A stretch of 64,000 bases of DNA from the sequence record MW250786; one strand, given 5' to 3'. Numbering within the stretch: the first letter of the stretch is position 1; every line of letters begins with the position of its first letter. The translations under genes were made by a program, and so were the position numbers. Shown here piece by piece: positions 4,401 to 43,095 of this stretch. The notes under the pieces are model-generated. The model did not search any database, was not told the origin of the DNA, and saw nothing but the letters and a program-made list of their open reading frames with translations. The DNA is from Escherichia phage UPEC06.

Positions 4401-4410
4401 CCTTAGATGA

Positions 4411-4428
4411 GTCGGGCTTCGGCCCGAC
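4411..4428 (+). other. GC-rich hairpin after fibre chaperone gene, no U-tract
   Basis: GTCGGGC-ttc-GGCCCGAC perfect stem directly after stop at 4400. Confidence 0.4.
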
Positions 4429-4439
4429 TATGGAGACTT

Positions 4440-4772
4440 ATGATTGTTGATATAATGGCAGTTCTTAAAGCACTTTGGGGTCTTTTAACATTTATTTTGC
4501 TGGGTGCACTAAAGATCTTTTACACCGACTTTAAAAAATTAGAGTCACGTCAAAGCGAGCTTGAAAAAGATGTTCTTCGTTTGAAGGAATCTGCGGTTAC
4601 TAAGGATAGTATCGATGCCATTCTTGACCGTAAGATAAAACATATCACTGATACGATCCAGGATATTAGGACCGATATCACAGATATGCGAAAGGAAGCA
4701 AAAGAAGAAAACCACGCTCTACAGAAGGATATTCGAGAATTACTAAACAAAATTATTGAGAACCGCAAATGA
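4440..4772 (+). CDS. membrane-anchored coiled-coil protein
   Basis: N-terminal hydrophobic helix then charged heptad-like region; start set to ATG 4440 with GGAGA RBS (track start 4407 lies in hairpin). Confidence 0.5.
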   Translation: MIVDIMAVLKALWGLLTFILLGALKIFYTDFKKLESRQSELEKDVLRLKESAVTKDSIDAILDRKIKHITDTIQDIRTDITDMRKEAKEENHALQKDIRELLNKIIENRK

Positions 4773-5227
4773 TTACAGCCATAATATATGGCATTTGTTT
4801 CGTAATCCTTGCTACTCGAAAAGAGAGTGGAACAAAGATAATGGCTGGGCTTTGCCTAGCCTATCTCGTATTGGAGAACCTGATCCTTTGGTTCTTCTCT
4901 ACGCAACAATATTTCGACATCACTCTTTATTTTAATGTTCTCTGGACATTGGATTCGATACTGCTTTTCACTATGGGTTGTACAGTGAAAGGATTACGAC
5001 AAAAACTTATCGTATGCCTAAGTATTCCGTTCATGCTTATTCAAGTGTTTGCAATCCAATATCCAGAATTGTTCCCCTTATGGGTTTACGAATTCGCTCT
5101 TAGAGACGCTCACAAATATTTCATAGAAACCTTTGTGTTCGTTTATTCTTGGAAGGATAATACCGTACCGGAATGGATAAGGACAGCAGTGGTGATATTT
5201 CTGGTGCTCATTGCCCATATGGTATGA
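4769..5227 (+). CDS. multi-pass membrane protein
   Basis: 152 aa with 4-5 hydrophobic segments; ATGA overlap with upstream stop. Confidence 0.5.
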   Translation: MITAIIYGICFVILATRKESGTKIMAGLCLAYLVLENLILWFFSTQQYFDITLYFNVLWTLDSILLFTMGCTVKGLRQKLIVCLSIPFMLIQVFAIQYPELFPLWVYEFALRDAHKYFIETFVFVYSWKDNTVPEWIRTAVVIFLVLIAHMV

Positions 5228-5249
5228 ACATTGATAATGAAGGTGATCT

Positions 5250-5510
5250 ATGTTAAAATTTCTCAAAGACCTCGTTACCTCTGCGGTGGAACCAGATAAA
5301 GCTTCCCATACAAAGTTTTGGTCTAACGTAGGTATGGCTGCTATGACTGCCGTCTTTCTATGGTATGGATTCAACAATACATTGCCTGAATGGTATGTGT
5401 GGCTTTATGCTCCTACGGTAGTGGCTCCACACCTTTTGAGTGATCTCATTAACCTCCGCTGGGGATTATCTTTGAAAAAAGATAAAGGCCCTTCTGACGA
5501 AAACAAGTAA
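5250..5510 (+). CDS. small membrane protein (holin-like topology)
   Basis: 86 aa, two hydrophobic segments, charged C-terminus, RBS-like sequence upstream. Confidence 0.45.
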   Translation: MLKFLKDLVTSAVEPDKASHTKFWSNVGMAAMTAVFLWYGFNNTLPEWYVWLYAPTVVAPHLLSDLINLRWGLSLKKDKGPSDENK

Positions 5511-10031: not shown

Positions 10032-10066
10032 AGAAAAGGCGCTCAAATGAGCGCCTTTATTTTTAT
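10032..10066. terminator. bidirectional terminator at convergent strand switch
   Basis: AAAGGCGCTC-aaat-GAGCGCCTTT hairpin flanked by A-run and T-run, between + gene ending 10031 and - gene ending 10080. Confidence 0.7.
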
Positions 10067-10079
10067 CTAAATTTTACGA

Positions 10080-11255
10080 TCAAAACGGAATATCGTCGTC
10101 AAAATCCATATCATCTACAGACATATTCACATGGCCTTCGATATCAGGTGTAGGTGAATCTTCTGCTGACGGAGTTAACTGCGGTTCCGGCTCAGATTTC
10201 TTTTCTTCTTGCTTAGGGGTTGAAGCCCCGTTACGGATCTTATCTTCCAACTGACAGATAAATCGGAAATTCTCTTCTGTTTTAGCAATAAACGTTTCAA
10301 TGTTATTACTTCCCCAACGGGCAGAAAGAATACCACACTGGCCTAAACGAGCACCAAAAGAATAATCATCCATAGATTTAAACTCTTCGCGAAGTTTTGC
10401 TTTAATGGAGTCCATCGCTGCAAGAACTTGCTCTACAACAATACCCTGATTTACGATCGTTTCATTCGGGAACATCGCATCTGTGATAGACAGTGCATTA
10501 CCTAAACGAATAGGCAGATCGTCTTTACCTTTACCTGAACGTGATCCTGTTCCAGTACTTGCACCTTTTGGACCGTAAGCTTTAAAGCCTGTAACCGTAC
10601 CATCATCTGAACGAACACCTGCAATACGACCACCTTCTGTAATCTGACCCGTCTGTTCATCAGTGAGGTTTACAGTAACTTCTGTGCCGTCTTCCAGCTT
10701 AACAACTACCTTATTGCCTTCGATAGATGTGATATCACCATAAATCTTCTTAGCTGCACCACCAGACGGCTTTTGCTGCTGTTGGGAACCATTTGATTGC
10801 TGCTGTTGCTGACGAGGCTCACGAGCACCGGATGCGTCAGTAATCTTGATACGTGCTTTCTTACCTTCCGTAGAAGAACCCTGACTACCATCTTGTTTGG
10901 TGTAGGTCTTGATAACAACAGGTAAGCGAATTTTCATACCTTCTTTAAGATCAGTGTAACCACCTTCAGGATTTTTAATCTGGAACTGATTCTCATACTT
11001 CAGGTTTTTAACTTCACCTTCACCAAAAGAAATCCAAGCCTGGTCTTCACCTTCTTTCAGAAGAACTGCATAGCGGTGGGTATTGTTAATGCTTTTTTGC
11101 TGACCTGTATTCTTATCTTTAAAGGTGGTAACGCGTGGACTACCATCTTCATTAATACGTTTAATGAGGATACGTTCAATCGTACCTGCTGCAATGTTTA
11201 CTGTGGTATCGGAAACAGCATCGTATACAGCATTGATAACTTTAACTTCAGACAT
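10080..11255 (-). CDS. single-stranded DNA-binding protein with acidic C-terminal tail
   Basis: C-terminus ...DDMDFDDDIPF matches the SSB acidic tip (DDDIPF); Gln/Gly-rich linker. Confidence 0.65.
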   Translation of the reverse strand: MSEVKVINAVYDAVSDTTVNIAAGTIERILIKRINEDGSPRVTTFKDKNTGQQKSINNTHRYAVLLKEGEDQAWISFGEGEVKNLKYENQFQIKNPEGGYTDLKEGMKIRLPVVIKTYTKQDGSQGSSTEGKKARIKITDASGAREPRQQQQQSNGSQQQQKPSGGAAKKIYGDITSIEGNKVVVKLEDGTEVTVNLTDEQTGQITEGGRIAGVRSDDGTVTGFKAYGPKGASTGTGSRSGKGKDDLPIRLGNALSITDAMFPNETIVNQGIVVEQVLAAMDSIKAKLREEFKSMDDYSFGARLGQCGILSARWGSNNIETFIAKTEENFRFICQLEDKIRNGASTPKQEEKKSEPEPQLTPSAEDSPTPDIEGHVNMSVDDMDFDDDIPF

Positions 11256-11338: not shown

Positions 11339-11719
11339 TTAGAGATAAACTCGCTTAACTTTTTCATGAACATTATCAAACAAAGTGTTGATCATCTGCA
11401 AGTCTTTAATAAGTTCTTCCGTAAATTGTTCTTCTTTGTGAGCAAACACACGAGAACGGTCAATGTTTACGGGATCTGCACTTTGGTCACCAGACAGGTC
11501 GAAAATGTCGATACCAATACGAGCACGACCTTTTTCAATCTTATTCTCATCATCAATACCATAAACACTCATGATTTGCATTTCACGATCTTCTTCTTTG
11601 TTTGTATAGATGATCGTGGTATTCAGATTCTTAATGCCATCATAAATGTGGATATTACGTGTAGCTGAGATAGGAATCCAATCACCAACCAGATAATCTT
11701 TACCGTCGAAAATACTCAT
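11339..11719 (-). CDS. hypothetical protein
   Basis: 126-aa ORF with RBS in - strand gene array. Confidence 0.5.
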   Translation of the reverse strand: MSIFDGKDYLVGDWIPISATRNIHIYDGIKNLNTTIIYTNKEEDREMQIMSVYGIDDENKIEKGRARIGIDIFDLSGDQSADPVNIDRSRVFAHKEEQFTEELIKDLQMINTLFDNVHEKVKRVYL

Positions 11720-11773
11720 CTTCTTTCCTCTGTTGTTTAAGTGGGGCCATTATGCCCCAAGTAGTACTTTCTG

Positions 11774-12361
11774 TCAAGGACGTTTTGGTGGACTAACGAC
11801 ACCTTTTTTAGATAAAGGTAATTCGTCTGCATCTTTTCCACGAAGAGATTCTAGCCACTCATCTAAAGACAGGGGTACTTTACCATCACCTTTGGACCAC
11901 ACAGACAAGCAATACAGATCGTATGCAGATGGACCTCGATCACCTTTGTCACCATTCGGCCCTTTTAAGCTCTCCAACCAATCCTTTTCGTTCAGTGGGA
12001 TAGCACCTGGATCTTCTTGATGAAGAACTCTTAGGTATGTTTCATAAGCAGACTCTCCACGAGGACCCATTTGACCCTTCTCACCTTGTGGCCCTTTTGC
12101 ATAATCTGCGTACTTAGATTCCAGATATGCAGACTTCACACCTTCAGGGGCAACGGAAACCTTATACAATGACCAAGCTAACAGAGCTATCCAACAAGCA
12201 AACAGTGCAAGCGGATAAGGGATCATTGAAGTAAAGAATGACAGAGCTAAAATTACAACCTTGTTCTTGTGATTACGACGGAAAGCGATGATCACAGGGG
12301 CTAACCAGATAGCAAAGATAACCCACGCAGATAAGATAAACAACCAACTAATGTATTCCAT
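11774..12361 (-). CDS. membrane protein with short collagen-like G-X-Y repeats
   Basis: Two N-terminal hydrophobic segments; GPQGEKGQMGPRGES and GPNGDKGDRGPS triplet runs. Confidence 0.5.
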   Translation of the reverse strand: MEYISWLFILSAWVIFAIWLAPVIIAFRRNHKNKVVILALSFFTSMIPYPLALFACWIALLAWSLYKVSVAPEGVKSAYLESKYADYAKGPQGEKGQMGPRGESAYETYLRVLHQEDPGAIPLNEKDWLESLKGPNGDKGDRGPSAYDLYCLSVWSKGDGKVPLSLDEWLESLRGKDADELPLSKKGVVSPPKRP

Positions 12362-12549
12362 TAAGCCTCCTCGGTATCGTCTTTAAAGTAATCTAACATC
12401 CAACTTTCTACAGGGGTTGCATAGTAACCCGTTCGACCTTTCTTTTGAAACTCCATGATAATTTCATTTGCAATACCTTTTGTGATTGCGATCCCGATCA
12501 GTGCACCACCAGGTCCCATTACTGCATGTGAACTAAGATCATTACTCAT
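12361..12549 (-). CDS. hypothetical protein
   Basis: 62-aa ORF, start/stop abut neighbours. Confidence 0.35.
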   Translation of the reverse strand: MSNDLSSHAVMGPGGALIGIAITKGIANEIIMEFQKKGRTGYYATPVESWMLDYFKDDTEEA

Positions 12550-12841
12550 TTTTAACCCCCTTCATTTTATCTCTTAAACTTTGAGCATCCCACGTATAAC
12601 CTGAGGAGATACCTTTTTCACGTTCACTATCTTTGAACTTGCAAATTACAGATTTTGCTTCACCATCAACAACAACCGCATAACTGTTGTAATAATTGTG
12701 TTGCTTCTTGCAAAATTCGTGTAACTCCTTAACCTCTATTGGCATCAGAGAAGGTAGATTTTTGTATCGCTTTGTCTGATCATCTTCACCATCTCCGCAA
12801 CCAACAAGAAGAAGTATACATAAAATGATTAACCTTTTCAA
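12542..12841 (-). CDS. putative lipoprotein
   Basis: Signal peptide with lipobox-like LLVGC. Confidence 0.5.
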   Translation of the reverse strand: MKRLIILCILLLVGCGDGEDDQTKRYKNLPSLMPIEVKELHEFCKKQHNYYNSYAVVVDGEAKSVICKFKDSEREKGISSGYTWDAQSLRDKMKGVKNE

Positions 12842-12989
12842 TAGCTACCCCCAAAATATTTTGTAATCTCTACTGCAAATATTGTCCCAAGTATAAACCA
12901 TGTGGCACTTAGTACGTTGAAGGGTAAAAACCTTGATCCTGTAAGAGAAACCATAATGAAAAACGTTACAAAAATCTCTGGAGAAATCA

Positions 12990-13391
12990 TCATTGTTTGA
13001 TAGTCCCCTTGGCGATCATCTCGTCAAGTTCATCTTCCGCACGACACATAATCTGATAGATAGTCTCTGGATTGTTTAAGAATTCTGTGTACTTTTTGAT
13101 ACGACAAACTAAACGTGCACGAACTTTACGCTCACGGGCCACATGATTAAAGTAATGTCCCTTTTGTCTGTAGATCCAAGCATAATATACAGTTTTTGCT
13201 CTATTGCGATCACAACCTAAACGTTCAGCCAACAGAGTGTAAGGGTCATTATTAGTGGGACCAAACAAAAATATTTCTGCAAAACTTTCCTTCATGATAC
13301 GAGATTCTTCATCCGTGATTCGCGGACATTCTTCAGAACCGTAGCGTGGGGTTTTAGTGGCATTTGGCTTCTTAGGGTATACTTTACGCAT
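12990..13391 (-). CDS. hypothetical protein
   Basis: 133-aa basic ORF with RBS. Confidence 0.5.
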   Translation of the reverse strand: MRKVYPKKPNATKTPRYGSEECPRITDEESRIMKESFAEIFLFGPTNNDPYTLLAERLGCDRNRAKTVYYAWIYRQKGHYFNHVARERKVRARLVCRIKKYTEFLNNPETIYQIMCRAEDELDEMIAKGTIKQ

Positions 13392-41562: not shown

Positions 41563-43095
41563 ATGGCAAAACTGACGATTGAAGAAAGTAACATGATTGA
41601 AATGCAAGTCTCTGAAGCGGAACGTATCATTGAGGCTGCTAGTCTACAACTGATGCGTTTTAAACCCTTCTACGGGGTGATGCTTTCGTCTATGCCTGTT
41701 AAAAAGGCAACTGAGTGGTGCAGTACAATGGCGACTGATGGACGCAACCTATACTATCATCCAGAATTCATTGCAGGTATGACAGAAGAACGTAAAAAAT
41801 TAGTACTCGATCGACTTTCCAAATCTGAGTCCGATCCTAAAAAGCTTAAAGAGGCAACTGAATTTATTAATGTTTTTTATCGACGGAAGACCGCTCGTGA
41901 AGTTGCACTTATTCTTGAGCATGAATGTGATCATGTGATCTCTGATCACGCCTCTCGCGGTAAAGGATTTAATCATGAACTTTACAACATTGCAGCGGAT
42001 CATCGTATCAATACAACGGCTGTGCTTATTCACCAGAAAGGGGATGAGTTAGGTAAAGCCTGGTTCCCTGCCGGAGAGAGAACGGTATTTGATAAGAATG
42101 CTGAATTTGGATTTATGGCCTGGTCTTATTGTGACTTCCGATTCAAAGATATGTATACAGAGCAAATCTATGAAATCTTAAATAAAGAGCAGGACGATAA
42201 AGAAAAATCCAAAGGGGAAGGTTCTGGAAGTGGAAAAGGAGATGGTGAAGAAGGTGATCAAGGCCGTAAAGGTGTTGATCAGCACATGGACCCAAATGGT
42301 GATCCAGAAGATTCAGAAGATGATAGTATCGAAGATGCACTCGGAATCGACCGTAAAGCGAAACCTAAGCAAACAGCAGAGGAACGCCAATATAACGATG
42401 GGGTTATGCGTCGAGCCATTGAGAATGCCGTACAGGCAGCAGGAAGCGGTGCACCGGAAGATGCACGACGTTTTGTAGAGGCGGCAGGTAAACCAAAGAT
42501 TAACTATCTTCGTTTGTTGCGTAAAACTATTGAACGTCTGTTCAAAGATGATGTATCATATCGTCGTTTGTCACGCCGTAGTCACTCGTTAACTCGGACT
42601 CTCCGTAGCTCAGGTTACTTGTCTGGACGACAAACAATTGGTTTACCATCAAAGAATAAACAGAAGACTATCCGTGCAGGTGTTTTCTTTGATGTGTCGG
42701 GATCATTTAACGATGAACTGTTAAGACCAACAATGCGTGAGATTCGTGGATTGTGTAATCTTTACGACGAGTTTGAGGTCACGATGGCTTGCTGGTCAAC
42801 AAAGGTTGGTAACATTGAAACGTATACGAAGAAGAATGTGAATGAGATTGCTAACTATAAGATCAAGACCACATTTGGTACGGATGTTTCTTGTGTGTTT
42901 GAAGCATTAGATGAAATGAAAGACCCTATGGATCAGATCATCATCTATACTGACGGTTACTTTGCTGATGTATCCCAAAAGAAAGATTGGGCCAAAAAGT
43001 ATGGTAAGAATGTTCTTTGGATCATCCTGGGTCGTGGGTCTTCGTTCAATCCACCTTTTGGTAAAGCCATTGATTTTGACAAGTATCTTAAATAA
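41563..43095 (+). CDS. vWA-domain protein with N-terminal HExxH metallopeptidase-like motif (DUF2201-like MoxR partner)
   Basis: HExxH in ALILEHECDHVISDH; MIDAS-type DxSxS in VFFDVSGSF; acidic Gly/Glu/Asp-rich linker; directly downstream of AAA+ gene. Confidence 0.6.
   Translation: MAKLTIEESNMIEMQVSEAERIIEAASLQLMRFKPFYGVMLSSMPVKKATEWCSTMATDGRNLYYHPEFIAGMTEERKKLVLDRLSKSESDPKKLKEATEFINVFYRRKTAREVALILEHECDHVISDHASRGKGFNHELYNIAADHRINTTAVLIHQKGDELGKAWFPAGERTVFDKNAEFGFMAWSYCDFRFKDMYTEQIYEILNKEQDDKEKSKGEGSGSGKGDGEEGDQGRKGVDQHMDPNGDPEDSEDDSIEDALGIDRKAKPKQTAEERQYNDGVMRRAIENAVQAAGSGAPEDARRFVEAAGKPKINYLRLLRKTIERLFKDDVSYRRLSRRSHSLTRTLRSSGYLSGRQTIGLPSKNKQKTIRAGVFFDVSGSFNDELLRPTMREIRGLCNLYDEFEVTMACWSTKVGNIETYTKKNVNEIANYKIKTTFGTDVSCVFEALDEMKDPMDQIIIYTDGYFADVSQKKDWAKKYGKNVLWIILGRGSSFNPPFGKAIDFDKYLK

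What the first reader, a model, noticed from the sequence alone, without database searches (positions are those of the whole stretch)
11774..12361. Membrane protein with collagen-like G-X-Y stretches
The 195-aa product has two N-terminal hydrophobic helices followed by short collagen-like triplet runs (GPQGEKGQMGPRGES and GPNGDKGDRGPS). Collagen-like repeats are normally found in phage fibre or structural proteins; here they sit in a membrane protein within the replication block.
Basis: seen in the sequence. Interest (0 to 1): 0.25.

Follow-up and report, generated by a model that had tools for sequence, protein, structure and literature searches.

The report
Imm-like membrane protein with collagen stalk
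This is a real phage gene for an inner-membrane protein whose membrane part resembles the phage T4 Imm protein (which stops a second phage from injecting DNA) and which carries a short collagen-like stalk, predicted to lie in the periplasm, ending in a strictly conserved peptide; it most likely shields the infected cell from rival phages, but nobody has tested it.

Summary
ORF 11774-12361 (minus strand, 195 aa) is a real gene. It is the Escherichia phage UPEC06 protein QUL77301.1 (Vequintavirinae, Septuagintavirus-type), annotated "hypothetical".

- **Membrane domain:** two membrane helices flank a basic loop (RRNHKNK).
- **G-X-Y runs:** there are two, of 5 and 4 triplets.
- **Imm link:** the membrane domain is a distant relative of T4 Imm (Pfam PF14373). 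The support is sub-threshold Pfam hits, hhalign at 85%, and best Foldseek matches to phage Imm proteins.
- **Topology:** charge distribution predicts that both ends lie in the periplasm.
- **Family plan:** Imm-like domain, collagen-like run, 0-2 inserted fibre-type modules (SAYExY...EWLESLKG), then an invariant tail (GKDADE[IL]PLSK.GV plus basic residues). Only this clade has two modules.
- **Context:** the gene sits in one conserved position in Certrevirus and Septuagintavirus phages, usually just after a small lipoprotein gene. Its W70 orthologue was not among the virion proteins found by mass spectrometry.

Best reading: an early, probably trimeric, Imm-type superinfection-exclusion protein. 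The function is inferred, not shown. I rate it a new variant of a known kind, of moderate interest.

The parts
11774..12361 (-). Complete coding sequence, 195 aa plus stop codon (11774-11776). Identical to Escherichia phage UPEC06 QUL77301.1.
12366..12372 (-). Ribosome-binding site GAGGAGG, 4 nt before the ATG. The ATG (12359-12361) overlaps the TAA of the upstream 62-aa ORF by one base, which suggests translational coupling.
   Evidence: read directly from the sequence; ORF ends
12281..12355 (-). Membrane helix 1 (aa about 3-27), including the conserved W19 and the P22-x-x-I-A26 motif.
   Evidence: hydropathy; AF2 helix 2-28 with pLDDT about 90; invariant columns
12260..12280 (-). Basic loop RRNHKNK (aa 28-34), predicted cytoplasmic.
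   Evidence: across 55 family members the loop averages 3.9 K+R (net +3.3). The N-terminal 8 aa have no K/R (net -1.1). The 14 aa before the G-X-Y run are net -0.1.
12164..12259 (-). Membrane helix 2 (aa about 35-66), long and kinked at P48-Y-P50.
   Evidence: Together with helix 1 and the loop it matches T4 Imm (hhalign) and Imm structure models.
12095..12163 (-). Juxtamembrane linker (aa 67-89). It contains KSAYLESKYADYAKG, possibly a degenerate half-module. This is the most variable stretch among close relatives (A5-4 has a 5-aa deletion here).
   Evidence: AF2 helix 76-87 at low confidence
12050..12094 (-). Collagen-like run 1, GPQGEKGQMGPRGES (5 triplets, aa 90-104).
11963..12052 (-). Fibre-type module 1, SAYETYLRVLHQEDPGAIPLNEKDWLESLK (aa 104-133).
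   Evidence: AF2 predicts two short helices (105-115 and 125-132)
11927..11962 (-). Collagen-like run 2, GPNGDKGDRGPS (4 triplets, aa 134-145).
11840..11929 (-). Fibre-type module 2, SAYDLYCLSVWSKGDGKVPLSLDEWLESLR (aa 145-174).
   Evidence: AF2 helices 146-156 and 166-173
11777..11839 (-). Family-invariant C-terminal tail GKDADELPLSKKGVVSPPKRP (aa 175-195).
   Evidence: P182, S184 and G187 are invariant, and G175, D177, A178, D179, E180, L183 and V188 are at least 90% conserved, in 21 sequences. The motif is present in 56 of 58 family sequences.
12542..12841 (-). Upstream 99-aa lipoprotein gene (lipobox LLVGC, conserved Cys pair). A homologue lies immediately upstream in 5 of the 10 related loci aligned and one small ORF away in 3 more. 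Possible partner; not shown to interact.

Best explanation
The gene encodes an inner-membrane protein made by the phage inside the infected cell, probably early in infection.

**Membrane domain.** Its N-terminal two-helix domain is a divergent member of the T4 Imm (superinfection immunity) fold. It inserts with the basic loop in the cytoplasm and both ends in the periplasm.

**Stalk.** The periplasmic part is a short stalk that probably assembles as a trimer. It has 9 collagen-like G-X-Y triplets split into two runs. Two helical spacer modules of about 30 aa interrupt the runs. These are the same module that phage fibres use between collagen-like segments.

**Tail.** The stalk holds out an invariant, basic C-terminal peptide (DADELPLSKKGVV..KRP).

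**Proposed action.** Like T4 Imm and other inner-membrane exclusion proteins (HK97 gp15, P22 SieA), it blocks transfer of DNA from a second, related phage across the periplasm and inner membrane. The stalk and tail would engage either the incoming tail tip or DNA conduit, or a host envelope component that the conduit needs. The conserved neighbouring lipoprotein may work with it.

**Shown:** the gene is real and under purifying selection; the domain plan; conservation of the G-X-Y run and the tail; similarity to Imm; the charge pattern; the orthologue was not detected in the virion.

**Inferred:** the topology, trimer formation, early expression and the exclusion function.
For: **Imm link**
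- Pfam PF14373 matches the window protein at E 6.5e-4.
- 11 of 21 family members match at E<=0.01, the best at 1.2e-5.
- Several members carry precomputed PF14373 hits, and the SSBI34 member carries PF14373 plus PF01391.
- phrog_1039 'immunity to superinfection' matches at 2e-5.
- hhalign of the family against T4 Imm gives probability 85%, E 6.6e-6, over 58 columns covering both helices.
- The best non-self Foldseek hits in BFVD are the Imm proteins of Serratia phage PS2 (TM 0.79, rmsd 1.7 A, 59 columns) and Aeromonas phage pIS4-A.
- UniRef already labels the CR8 and PBES02 homologues 'Superinfection immunity protein'.

**Topology**
- N-tail: 0 K/R. Loop: +3.3 net. After helix 2: -0.1 net. Measured over 55 members.

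**Collagen-like stalk**
- A G-X-Y run is present in 58 of 58 members, with 3-13 triplets.
- X positions are P 35%, K 21%, E 13%, R 11%. Y positions are D 28%, P 13%, K 11%. From my own knowledge, this is typical of bacterial and phage collagen-like sequences that lack hydroxyproline.

**Module**
- It recurs up to 17 times per protein in fibre-like proteins, and in tail-fibre, minor-tail and capsid-fibre genes of unrelated phages.

**Tail**
- It is invariant across about 35% overall sequence identity.

**Not a virion protein**
- The orthologue W70_103 is absent from the 28 W70 virion proteins found by mass spectrometry. The neighbouring W70_106 and W70_107 are present (PMC11370258).

**Context**
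- The gene keeps a fixed position in the non-structural leftward block, among small membrane and lipoprotein genes, in all loci examined.
- T4 imm likewise sits between replication genes 42 and 43.

**Precedent**
- Inner-membrane proteins that block DNA entry by acting on the incoming tail or conduit are described in PMC3594210 and PMC10883804.
Against: - No experiment exists for any family member.
- The window protein itself is below the Pfam gathering score for both PF14373 (20 vs 27.9 bits) and PF01391 (16.4 vs 27.2).
- Similarity between short hydrophobic domains can be inflated by composition.
- The mechanism of T4 Imm itself is unknown, so 'works like Imm' says little about how it works.
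- Stalk length varies about four-fold within the family, which argues against a fixed-distance ruler.
- Runs of 4-5 triplets are short for a stable triple helix.
- The monomer AF2 model of the stalk has low confidence. A linked pseudo-trimer prediction gave pLDDT 42, which is uninformative.
- PADLOC has no match.
- Expression timing is not known.
Confidence: 0.45

Rival explanations
1. It is a lysis-timing protein: a holin, or an antiholin-like sensor. Such a protein is small and membrane-embedded, accumulates in the inner membrane, and either forms the lethal hole or regulates it through its periplasmic domain, as T4 holin T and antiholin RI do.
For: - It is a small phage protein with two membrane helices and a charged, basic C-terminal end.
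- T4 Imm has been said to resemble a holin (review PMC6832632).
- I found no holin annotated for Septuagintavirus phages, and their lysis genes are reported to be dispersed (PMC12942863).
Against: - There is no Pfam or PHROG holin match. The only holin hit by Foldseek has E 3.2.
- No endolysin gene is adjacent.
- The gene lies in the non-structural block rather than with late genes.
- Class II holins have both ends in the cytoplasm (my own knowledge). Here the charge pattern puts both ends outside.
- A conserved collagen-like stalk and an invariant terminal peptide have no counterpart in known holins.
Confidence: 0.12
2. It is an envelope-remodelling or tethering protein of the infected cell, with no role in exclusion. 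The stalk and tail would bind peptidoglycan, the neighbouring lipoprotein, or a host machine such as the flagellar motor. The aim would be to stabilise the envelope or switch off a host function. It could also be one half of a spanin-like complex that bridges the periplasm.
For: - A lipoprotein gene is conserved just upstream and often overlaps in reading frame, which recalls inner-membrane/outer-membrane lipoprotein pairs.
- The family is restricted to the Certrevirus/Septuagintavirus clade. That clade's members are reported to use flagella as receptor (PMC11370258).
- Membrane- or lipid-anchored bacterial proteins also use the same module as a stalk. One example is a lipoprotein with modules and an HtrA-like protease, P0018.
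Against: - An Rz-like spanin pair is annotated elsewhere in the closely related KEC4 genome (PMC12942863). Neither this gene nor the lipoprotein falls in a spanin PHROG.
- The gene order (lipoprotein first) and the two-helix anchor differ from i-spanins.
- The shortest stalks (4 triplets, about 3.4 nm) cannot bridge a periplasm that is 18-25 nm wide (width from PMC10883804).
- Nothing links the tail peptide to any host target.
Confidence: 0.15
3. It is a virion fibre or other structural protein, and the hydrophobic N-terminus is an assembly or signal element.
For: The collagen-like runs and the SAYE...EWLESLKG module are otherwise typical of fibre, minor-tail and capsid-fibre proteins. The gene lies about 1.7 kb from the convergent tail-fibre genes.
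Against: - The orthologue W70_103 is not among the 28 virion proteins detected, while its neighbours W70_106 and W70_107 are.
- It is on the opposite strand from the fibre genes, in the non-structural block, separated from them by a bidirectional terminator-like hairpin.
- The N-terminus has no basic n-region of the kind a signal peptide has, and it matches the Imm fold.
- Most family members are only 103-127 aa with no distal domain.
- In Septuagintavirus genomes the module occurs only in this gene (one place per record; only here in the window).
Confidence: 0.03
4. The G-X-Y runs are a chance or low-complexity feature of a fast-evolving small membrane protein and have no structural role.
For: The runs are short (5 and 4 triplets). 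The Pfam Collagen score is below threshold.
Against: - The shuffle test gives P = 3e-5.
- A run is present at the same place in 58 of 58 homologues despite only about 35-45% identity.
- Longer members pass Pfam Collagen.
- Glycine positions 90, 93 and 96 are invariant.
- The variable part has dN/dS 0.23.
Confidence: 0.01

Closest known systems
T4 Imm, superinfection immunity protein (Pfam PF14373, Imm_superinfect)
   Same: - Both are phage-encoded, with two long membrane helices around a short basic loop and a P-x-x-I-A-x-x-R type motif.
- Both genes lie among replication and early genes (T4 imm sits between genes 42 and 43).
- Profile and fold similarity are reported.
   Different: - T4 Imm is 83 aa, with only about 19 residues after helix 2. 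This protein has 129 residues there, forming a collagen-like stalk, two fibre-type modules and a conserved tail.
- Helix 2 is longer and kinked by prolines.
- The window protein scores below the Pfam threshold.
- No exclusion phenotype has been tested.
Bacterial and phage collagen-like proteins (Pfam PF01391; streptococcal Scl1/Scl2; collagen-like segments of phage tail fibres)
   Same: - Uninterrupted G-X-Y triplets rich in Pro at X and in charged residues.
- Weak matches to the Scl2/SclB, Scl1/SclA and Lcl models.
- The same [G-X-Y]n-SAYExY...EWLxSLKG alternation is seen in phage fibre proteins.
   Different: - The runs are far shorter: 9 triplets in two runs here and 3-13 in the family, against tens to hundreds.
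- The protein is anchored in the inner membrane by an Imm-like domain, not cell-wall anchored or part of a virion.
- There is no globular head domain, only a 20-aa peptide.
- Triple-helix formation is not shown.
Inner-membrane superinfection-exclusion proteins that block DNA entry (HK97 gp15, P22 SieA, lactococcal Sie2009)
   Same: Proposed mode of action. These are small phage-encoded membrane proteins that leave adsorption intact and interfere with the incoming tail or periplasmic DNA conduit (PMC3594210, PMC10883804).
   Different: - I found no sequence relationship to any of them.
- Those proteins are expressed from prophages. This phage group is described as lytic.
- None of them is known to carry collagen-like repeats.
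- This is a resemblance in proposed function only.
T4 holin T and antiholin RI (membrane-anchored lysis proteins with periplasmic domains)
   Same: They are small phage inner-membrane proteins with a functional periplasmic C-terminal part that responds to events in the periplasm (my own knowledge; review PMC6832632).
   Different: There is no sequence or fold match. The number of membrane helices differs. This gene is not next to lysis genes.

Membership tests
Imm_superinfect (Pfam PF14373, T4 Imm family) | The sequence matches the family HMM at or above the curated gathering score (27.9 bits). | tested here: not met
   The window protein scores 20.0 bits, E 6.5e-4, covering only aa 18-43. 11 of 21 relatives match at E<=0.01. 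Six relatives carry a precomputed PF14373 hit. The family as a whole is therefore borderline-positive, but this sequence is sub-threshold.
Imm_superinfect (Pfam PF14373, T4 Imm family) | Two membrane helices joined by a short basic loop, alignable to T4 Imm over both helices. | tested here: met
   hhalign of family vs T4 Imm: probability 84.8%, E 6.6e-6, 58 columns. AF2 gives helices at pLDDT about 90. Foldseek top non-self hits are two phage Imm models.
Imm_superinfect (Pfam PF14373, T4 Imm family) | Confers exclusion of superinfecting phage at the DNA-entry step. | not testable with these tools
   Needs plating, adsorption and DNA-injection assays with the cloned gene.
Collagen triple-helix repeat proteins (Pfam PF01391) | Uninterrupted G-X-Y repeats that match the HMM at the gathering score (27.2 bits). 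| tested here: not met
   The window protein scores 16.4 bits, because its 9 triplets are split 5 + 4. Relatives with 10-13 uninterrupted triplets carry a precomputed PF01391 hit.
Collagen triple-helix repeat proteins (Pfam PF01391) | Glycine at every third position, conserved in register across homologues, with a Pro- and charge-rich X/Y composition. | tested here: met
   G90, G93 and G96 are invariant. A run is present in 58 of 58 members. Composition is given. The shuffle test gives P = 3e-5.
Collagen triple-helix repeat proteins (Pfam PF01391) | Forms a trimeric triple helix. | tested here: inconclusive
   The monomer AF2 model leaves the runs as low-confidence coil. A linked pseudo-trimer of the CR3 homologue gave mean pLDDT 41.9. 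This needs CD, cross-linking or a true multimer prediction.
Phage tail-fibre / virion fibre proteins | Present in the virion. | tested here: not met
   The orthologue W70_103 is absent from the published list of 28 W70 virion proteins (PMC11370258). This is absence of detection, not proof of absence.
Phage tail-fibre / virion fibre proteins | Encoded in the structural (late) module and carrying a distal receptor-binding or attachment domain. | tested here: not met
   The gene is on the opposite strand from the fibre genes, in the non-structural block. There is nothing after the stalk except a 21-aa peptide.
Holins | Match to a holin family, or adjacency to an endolysin gene. | tested here: not met
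   No holin family in Pfam or PHROGs. The neighbours are not lysis enzymes.
Holins | Lethal hole formation on expression. | not testable with these tools
   Needs an induction experiment.
Two-component spanins (Rz/Rz1 type) | An inner-membrane subunit with a single N-terminal helix and a periplasmic coiled coil, followed by or embedding a short outer-membrane lipoprotein gene. | tested here: not met
   This protein has two helices and a collagen-like rather than coiled-coil ectodomain. The lipoprotein gene lies upstream, not downstream. An Rz-like pair is reported elsewhere in the related KEC4 genome.

The most novel reading that the evidence does not exclude
The family is a structurally new class of superinfection-exclusion device. 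An Imm-type membrane anchor trimerises through a collagen-like stalk in the periplasm. It presents three copies of an invariant peptide that plug or mis-engage the three-fold-symmetric tail tip or DNA conduit of an incoming related phage. Stalk length and the membrane-proximal part would be reshuffled by recombination, including capture of fibre-type spacer modules, as part of phage-versus-phage competition. A more speculative variant is that the target is the host flagellar apparatus, which this phage clade is reported to use for entry. As far as I know, it would also be the first collagen-like triple helix anchored to the inner membrane in a Gram-negative periplasm.
Probability: 0.2. Interest if true: 0.65.

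Novelty: new variant of a known kind. Interest (0 to 1): 0.4.

Why it matters
How T4 Imm blocks DNA entry has been unknown for decades, partly because Imm is little more than two membrane helices with nothing to hold on to. This family joins the same kind of anchor to a periplasmic stalk and an invariant 20-residue peptide. That gives an obvious bait for finding the partner, whether an incoming tail component or a host envelope protein, and natural length variants to test.

It would also be an unusual place for a collagen-like helix: anchored to the inner membrane in the periplasm.

The practical importance is modest. Phages of this group are considered for biocontrol and therapy, and exclusion genes affect how phages behave in cocktails.

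Tried and rejected
1. **PDB sequence searches.** The whole protein and a 24-sequence profile of the module found nothing meaningful. Foldseek of the model against PDB also found nothing.
2. **Linked pseudo-trimer AF2 run.** I joined three copies of the CR3 homologue with GGGGS linkers and a 12-row alignment, to test trimer and triple-helix formation. Mean pLDDT was 41.9, which is uninformative.
3. **PADLOC and NCBIfam.** There was no defence-family match, and only weak collagen-adhesin matches.
4. **Capture of the module from the phage's own fibre genes.** Rejected. The module and runs of at least 4 G-X-Y triplets occur nowhere else in the window, apart from one short run at 42244-42279. Septuagintavirus genomes show only one place per record.
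5. **Recent internal duplication of the two modules.** Rejected. They are only about 50% identical at the DNA level and there are no tandem repeats.
6. **Positive selection on the variable central part.** Not supported. dN/dS is 0.23, while dS is 0.63 against 0.09-0.15 in the flanks. That pattern fits a recombinant mosaic segment.
7. **Tail motif in other proteins.** The extra hits of the profile search are plain collagen-like proteins without the tail.
8. **Literature.** Searches for Imm_superinfect, for collagen-like plus superinfection, and of the Vequintavirinae and Septuagintavirus papers found no description of this gene. The 1993 T4 Imm topology paper is not held.
9. **Three membrane-protein genes at 4407-5510 as spanin or holin candidates.** PHROGs gives no lysis annotation for them.
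Full report

Yes. ORF 11774-12361 on the minus strand starts with ATG and encodes 195 aa. It has a GAGGAGG ribosome-binding site 4 nt upstream. Its start overlaps the stop of the preceding 62-aa ORF.

Hydropathy shows two hydrophobic stretches, at about residues 3-27 and 35-66, around the basic loop RRNHKNK. The two G-X-Y runs are exactly as quoted: aa 90-104 (5 triplets) and aa 134-145 (4 triplets).

I shuffled the C-terminal 125 residues 200,000 times. A run of at least 5 triplets appeared with P = 0.0011, and two runs of at least 4 with P = 3e-5.

**2. Where the window comes from**

The region is 94-96% identical to Escherichia phages vB_EcoM-LTH01, A5-4, A73, W70 and A7_1 (Vequintavirinae; genus Septuagintavirus). 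The protein is identical to QUL77301.1 of Escherichia phage UPEC06. Every GenBank record calls it 'hypothetical protein'.

**3. The family**

An exhaustive HMMER search found 383 cluster representatives at E<=0.001. Almost all of them are long fibre-like proteins that match only residues about 85-180, often many times over (up to 17 stretches).

A few short proteins share the whole plan. Profile searches and tblastn enlarged this set to about 50 protein clusters and 28 GenBank phages:
- Certrevirus phages: CR3, CR8, CR9, PBES02, Pectobacterium phages, KaOmega and Enterobacter phages.
- Salmonella phage SSBI34.
- The Septuagintavirus group.

The alignments show a fixed design:

(a) **N-terminal two-helix domain.** It has invariant P22, A26, N33, I37 and P48, and near-invariant W19, R29 and H31.

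(b) **A short hydrophobic beta-like linker** (for example SPEVMVVQ or EPQYVYVP).

(c) **A G-X-Y run that is always present.** It has 3 to 13 triplets in 58 of 58 sequences. The modes are 4, 8 and 10 triplets.

(d) **Optionally one or two inserted modules** of the form SAYExY...(about 15 aa)...EWLESL[KR]G.

(e) **An invariant tail**, G[KR]DA[DE]E[IL]PLSK.GV, followed by basic residues. It is present in 56 of 58 sequences.

It clearly fails: the register is the most constant feature after the anchor and the tail. The window protein is the extreme member. My pattern count put two modules in three sequences (the window protein, P0001 and P0002, all from its own clade), one in eight (it missed P0195, which also has one), and none in the rest.

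**4. The membrane domain is Imm-like**

- Pfam Imm_superinfect matches the window protein below threshold (20 bits against 27.9).
- 11 of 21 relatives match at E<=0.01.
- Six relatives carry precomputed PF14373 hits. The SSBI34 member carries PF14373 plus PF01391.
- phrog_1039 'immunity to superinfection' matches at 2e-5.
- I retrieved T4 Imm. hhalign of the family against it gives 85% probability over 58 columns spanning both helices.
- AlphaFold2 models the domain with pLDDT about 90.
- The best non-self Foldseek hits among viral models are Imm proteins of Serratia phage PS2 (TM 0.79, rmsd 1.7 A) and Aeromonas phage pIS4-A.
- UniRef already names the CR8 and PBES02 homologues 'Superinfection immunity protein'.

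I conclude that the domain is a divergent relative of the Imm fold. By the curated threshold, however, this particular sequence is not a formal member.

**5. Topology (inferred)**

Across 55 members:

| Segment | K+R | Net charge |
|---|---|---|
| First 8 residues | none | -1.1 |
| Loop | mean 3.9 | +3.3 |
| 14 residues before the G-X-Y run | mean 1.1 | -0.1 |

By the positive-inside rule, the loop is cytoplasmic and both termini are periplasmic. The stalk and tail would therefore lie in the periplasm.

**6. The stalk**

The triplets are rich in Pro at X (35%) and in K/E/R at X and D/K at Y. From my own knowledge, this is the composition of bacterial and phage collagen-like sequences, which are stabilised by charge pairs rather than hydroxyproline.

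The inserted module is a widespread spacer:
- It alternates with G-X-Y runs in tail-fibre, minor-tail and capsid-fibre proteins of Pseudomonas, Ralstonia, Mycobacterium, Klebsiella, Xylella and Listeria phages.
- It occurs in bacterial lipoprotein-anchored proteins, such as an HtrA-like protease on a module stalk.
- It has no Pfam model and no PDB sequence match.
- AF2 predicts two short helices per module, at low confidence.

Trimer formation is inferred from the collagen-like repeats and the fibre context. My attempt to test it with a linked pseudo-trimer was uninformative.

If the stalks are triple-helical, at 0.286 nm per residue they would span about 3.4 nm for 4 triplets. The window protein would reach about 7.7 nm plus its two modules.

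**7. Evolution**

Against LTH01 the protein is the most diverged of 11 neighbouring genes (90.8% identity, against 92.5-100%). All changes fall in residues 59-136. That segment has dS 0.63 and dN/dS 0.23, while the flanks have dS 0.09-0.15 and no amino-acid change.

This is the signature of a recombinant (mosaic) central segment under purifying selection, not of relaxed or positive selection. The two modules are only about 50% identical at the DNA level and there are no tandem repeats, so they are not a recent duplication. The module was not copied from the phage's own fibre genes.

**8. Context**

In every locus examined the gene sits in the same place, at the distal end of the leftward non-structural block. 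It is followed within one to four genes by a DUF7325 gene. Then comes a protein of about 390-420 aa (not seen on the two shortest contigs). In every locus long enough to show it, convergent phiTE_241-type tail-fibre genes follow.

It is usually preceded by:
- a 49-51-aa ORF (hydrophobic in the window copy), and
- a lipoprotein of about 95 aa with two conserved cysteines. A homologue of this lipoprotein lies immediately upstream in 5 of the 10 loci aligned and one small ORF away in 3 more.

The window clade has an extra 62-aa ORF between the lipoprotein gene and this gene. The DUF7325 gene and this gene occur in exactly the same 28 GenBank phages.

The W70 orthologue (W70_103) is not among the 28 virion proteins found by mass spectrometry, whereas the adjacent W70_106 and W70_107 are (PMC11370258).

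**9. What it most likely does**

The Imm-like anchor, the predicted periplasmic exposure, the non-virion status and the company of other small envelope proteins all point the same way. So does precedent: T4 imm itself lies between replication genes, and inner-membrane proteins such as HK97 gp15 and P22 SieA block DNA entry by acting on the incoming tail or conduit (PMC3594210, PMC10883804).

I therefore favour a superinfection-exclusion protein that acts at the periplasm/inner-membrane step, with the stalk presenting the invariant peptide.

My confidence by layer:

| Claim | Confidence |
|---|---|
| Real inner-membrane protein with Imm-like anchor | about 0.85-0.9 |
| Periplasmic, trimeric collagen-like stalk | about 0.6 |
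| Exclusion function | about 0.45 |

Rivals are a holin or antiholin (0.12), an envelope tether or host-machine inhibitor, including a spanin-like pairing with the lipoprotein (0.15), a virion fibre protein (0.03) and chance (0.01). An Rz-like spanin pair is reported elsewhere in the related KEC4 genome.

**10. Novelty and score**

No paper in the searchable library describes this gene. Automated pipelines have tagged a few homologues with the Imm and/or Collagen domains.

What is new is the architecture: an Imm-type anchor, a collagen-like stalk of variable length, optional fibre-type modules and an invariant tail. Its restriction to one phage clade at one conserved position is also new.

I rate it a new variant of a known kind, with interest 0.4. 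It is a curious and experimentally tractable handle on Imm-type exclusion, but the function is unproven.

Noticed in passing
window 10080-11255 (-): This 391-aa protein (phrog_4477, unknown function) ends in ...DDMDFDDDIPF. From my own knowledge, the last nine residues are the same as the C-terminal tip of E. coli SSB, which recruits SSB-binding proteins. It may be a phage single-strand-binding or recruiting protein that mimics the host tip.
   Followed up: partly
window 11749-11777 (-) and 10035-10058: A near-consensus sigma-70-type promoter (TTGACA-17 nt-CATAAT, 11 of 12 matches) overlaps the stop codon of the studied gene, just upstream of the DUF7325 gene. A perfect 10-bp bidirectional terminator-like hairpin separates the convergent leftward and fibre blocks.
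   Followed up: no
window 11339-11719 (-): The DUF7325 (PF24011) gene occurs in exactly the same 28 GenBank phage genomes as the Imm-collagen gene, and always one to four genes downstream of it. This could be a functional link or simply shared ancestry.
   Followed up: partly
window 12542-12841 (-); also 12838-12993 and 12361-12549: A 99-aa lipoprotein (lipobox LLVGC, two conserved cysteines) is conserved just upstream of the Imm-collagen gene across the family. In several relatives the residue after the lipid-modified Cys is Asp, which in E. coli retains lipoproteins in the inner membrane (my own knowledge). A 51-aa hydrophobic ORF flanks it in the window (49-51-aa ORFs hold the same position in relatives), and this clade also has an extra 62-aa ORF. 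Together they look like a small envelope-directed cassette.
   Followed up: partly
protein aa 104-174 (window 11840-12052); P0003, P0018, P0031, P0067: The module of about 30 aa, [G-X-Y]n-SAYExY...EWLxSLKG, is very common. A single query hit 383 cluster representatives, with up to 17 copies per protein. It occurs in phage fibre proteins and in bacterial lipoprotein-anchored enzymes. Yet it has no Pfam model and no solved structure by sequence search.
   Followed up: partly
window 4407-5510 (+): Three small membrane-protein genes (121, 152 and 86 aa) lie between the tail-fibre assembly gene and the 1077-aa fibre gene. The first has one membrane helix followed by a long charged helical region. 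PHROGs gives no lysis annotation for them.
   Followed up: partly
window 11954-12187 (codons 59-136 of the gene): Against phage LTH01 this segment has synonymous divergence of 0.63, compared with 0.09-0.15 in the rest of the gene. That marks a recombination mosaic inside the gene.
   Followed up: yes
window 42244-42279 (+): This is the only other run of at least 4 G-X-Y triplets in the window (GEEGDQGRKGVD), inside the 510-aa ORF 41563-43095. It is probably chance.
   Followed up: no
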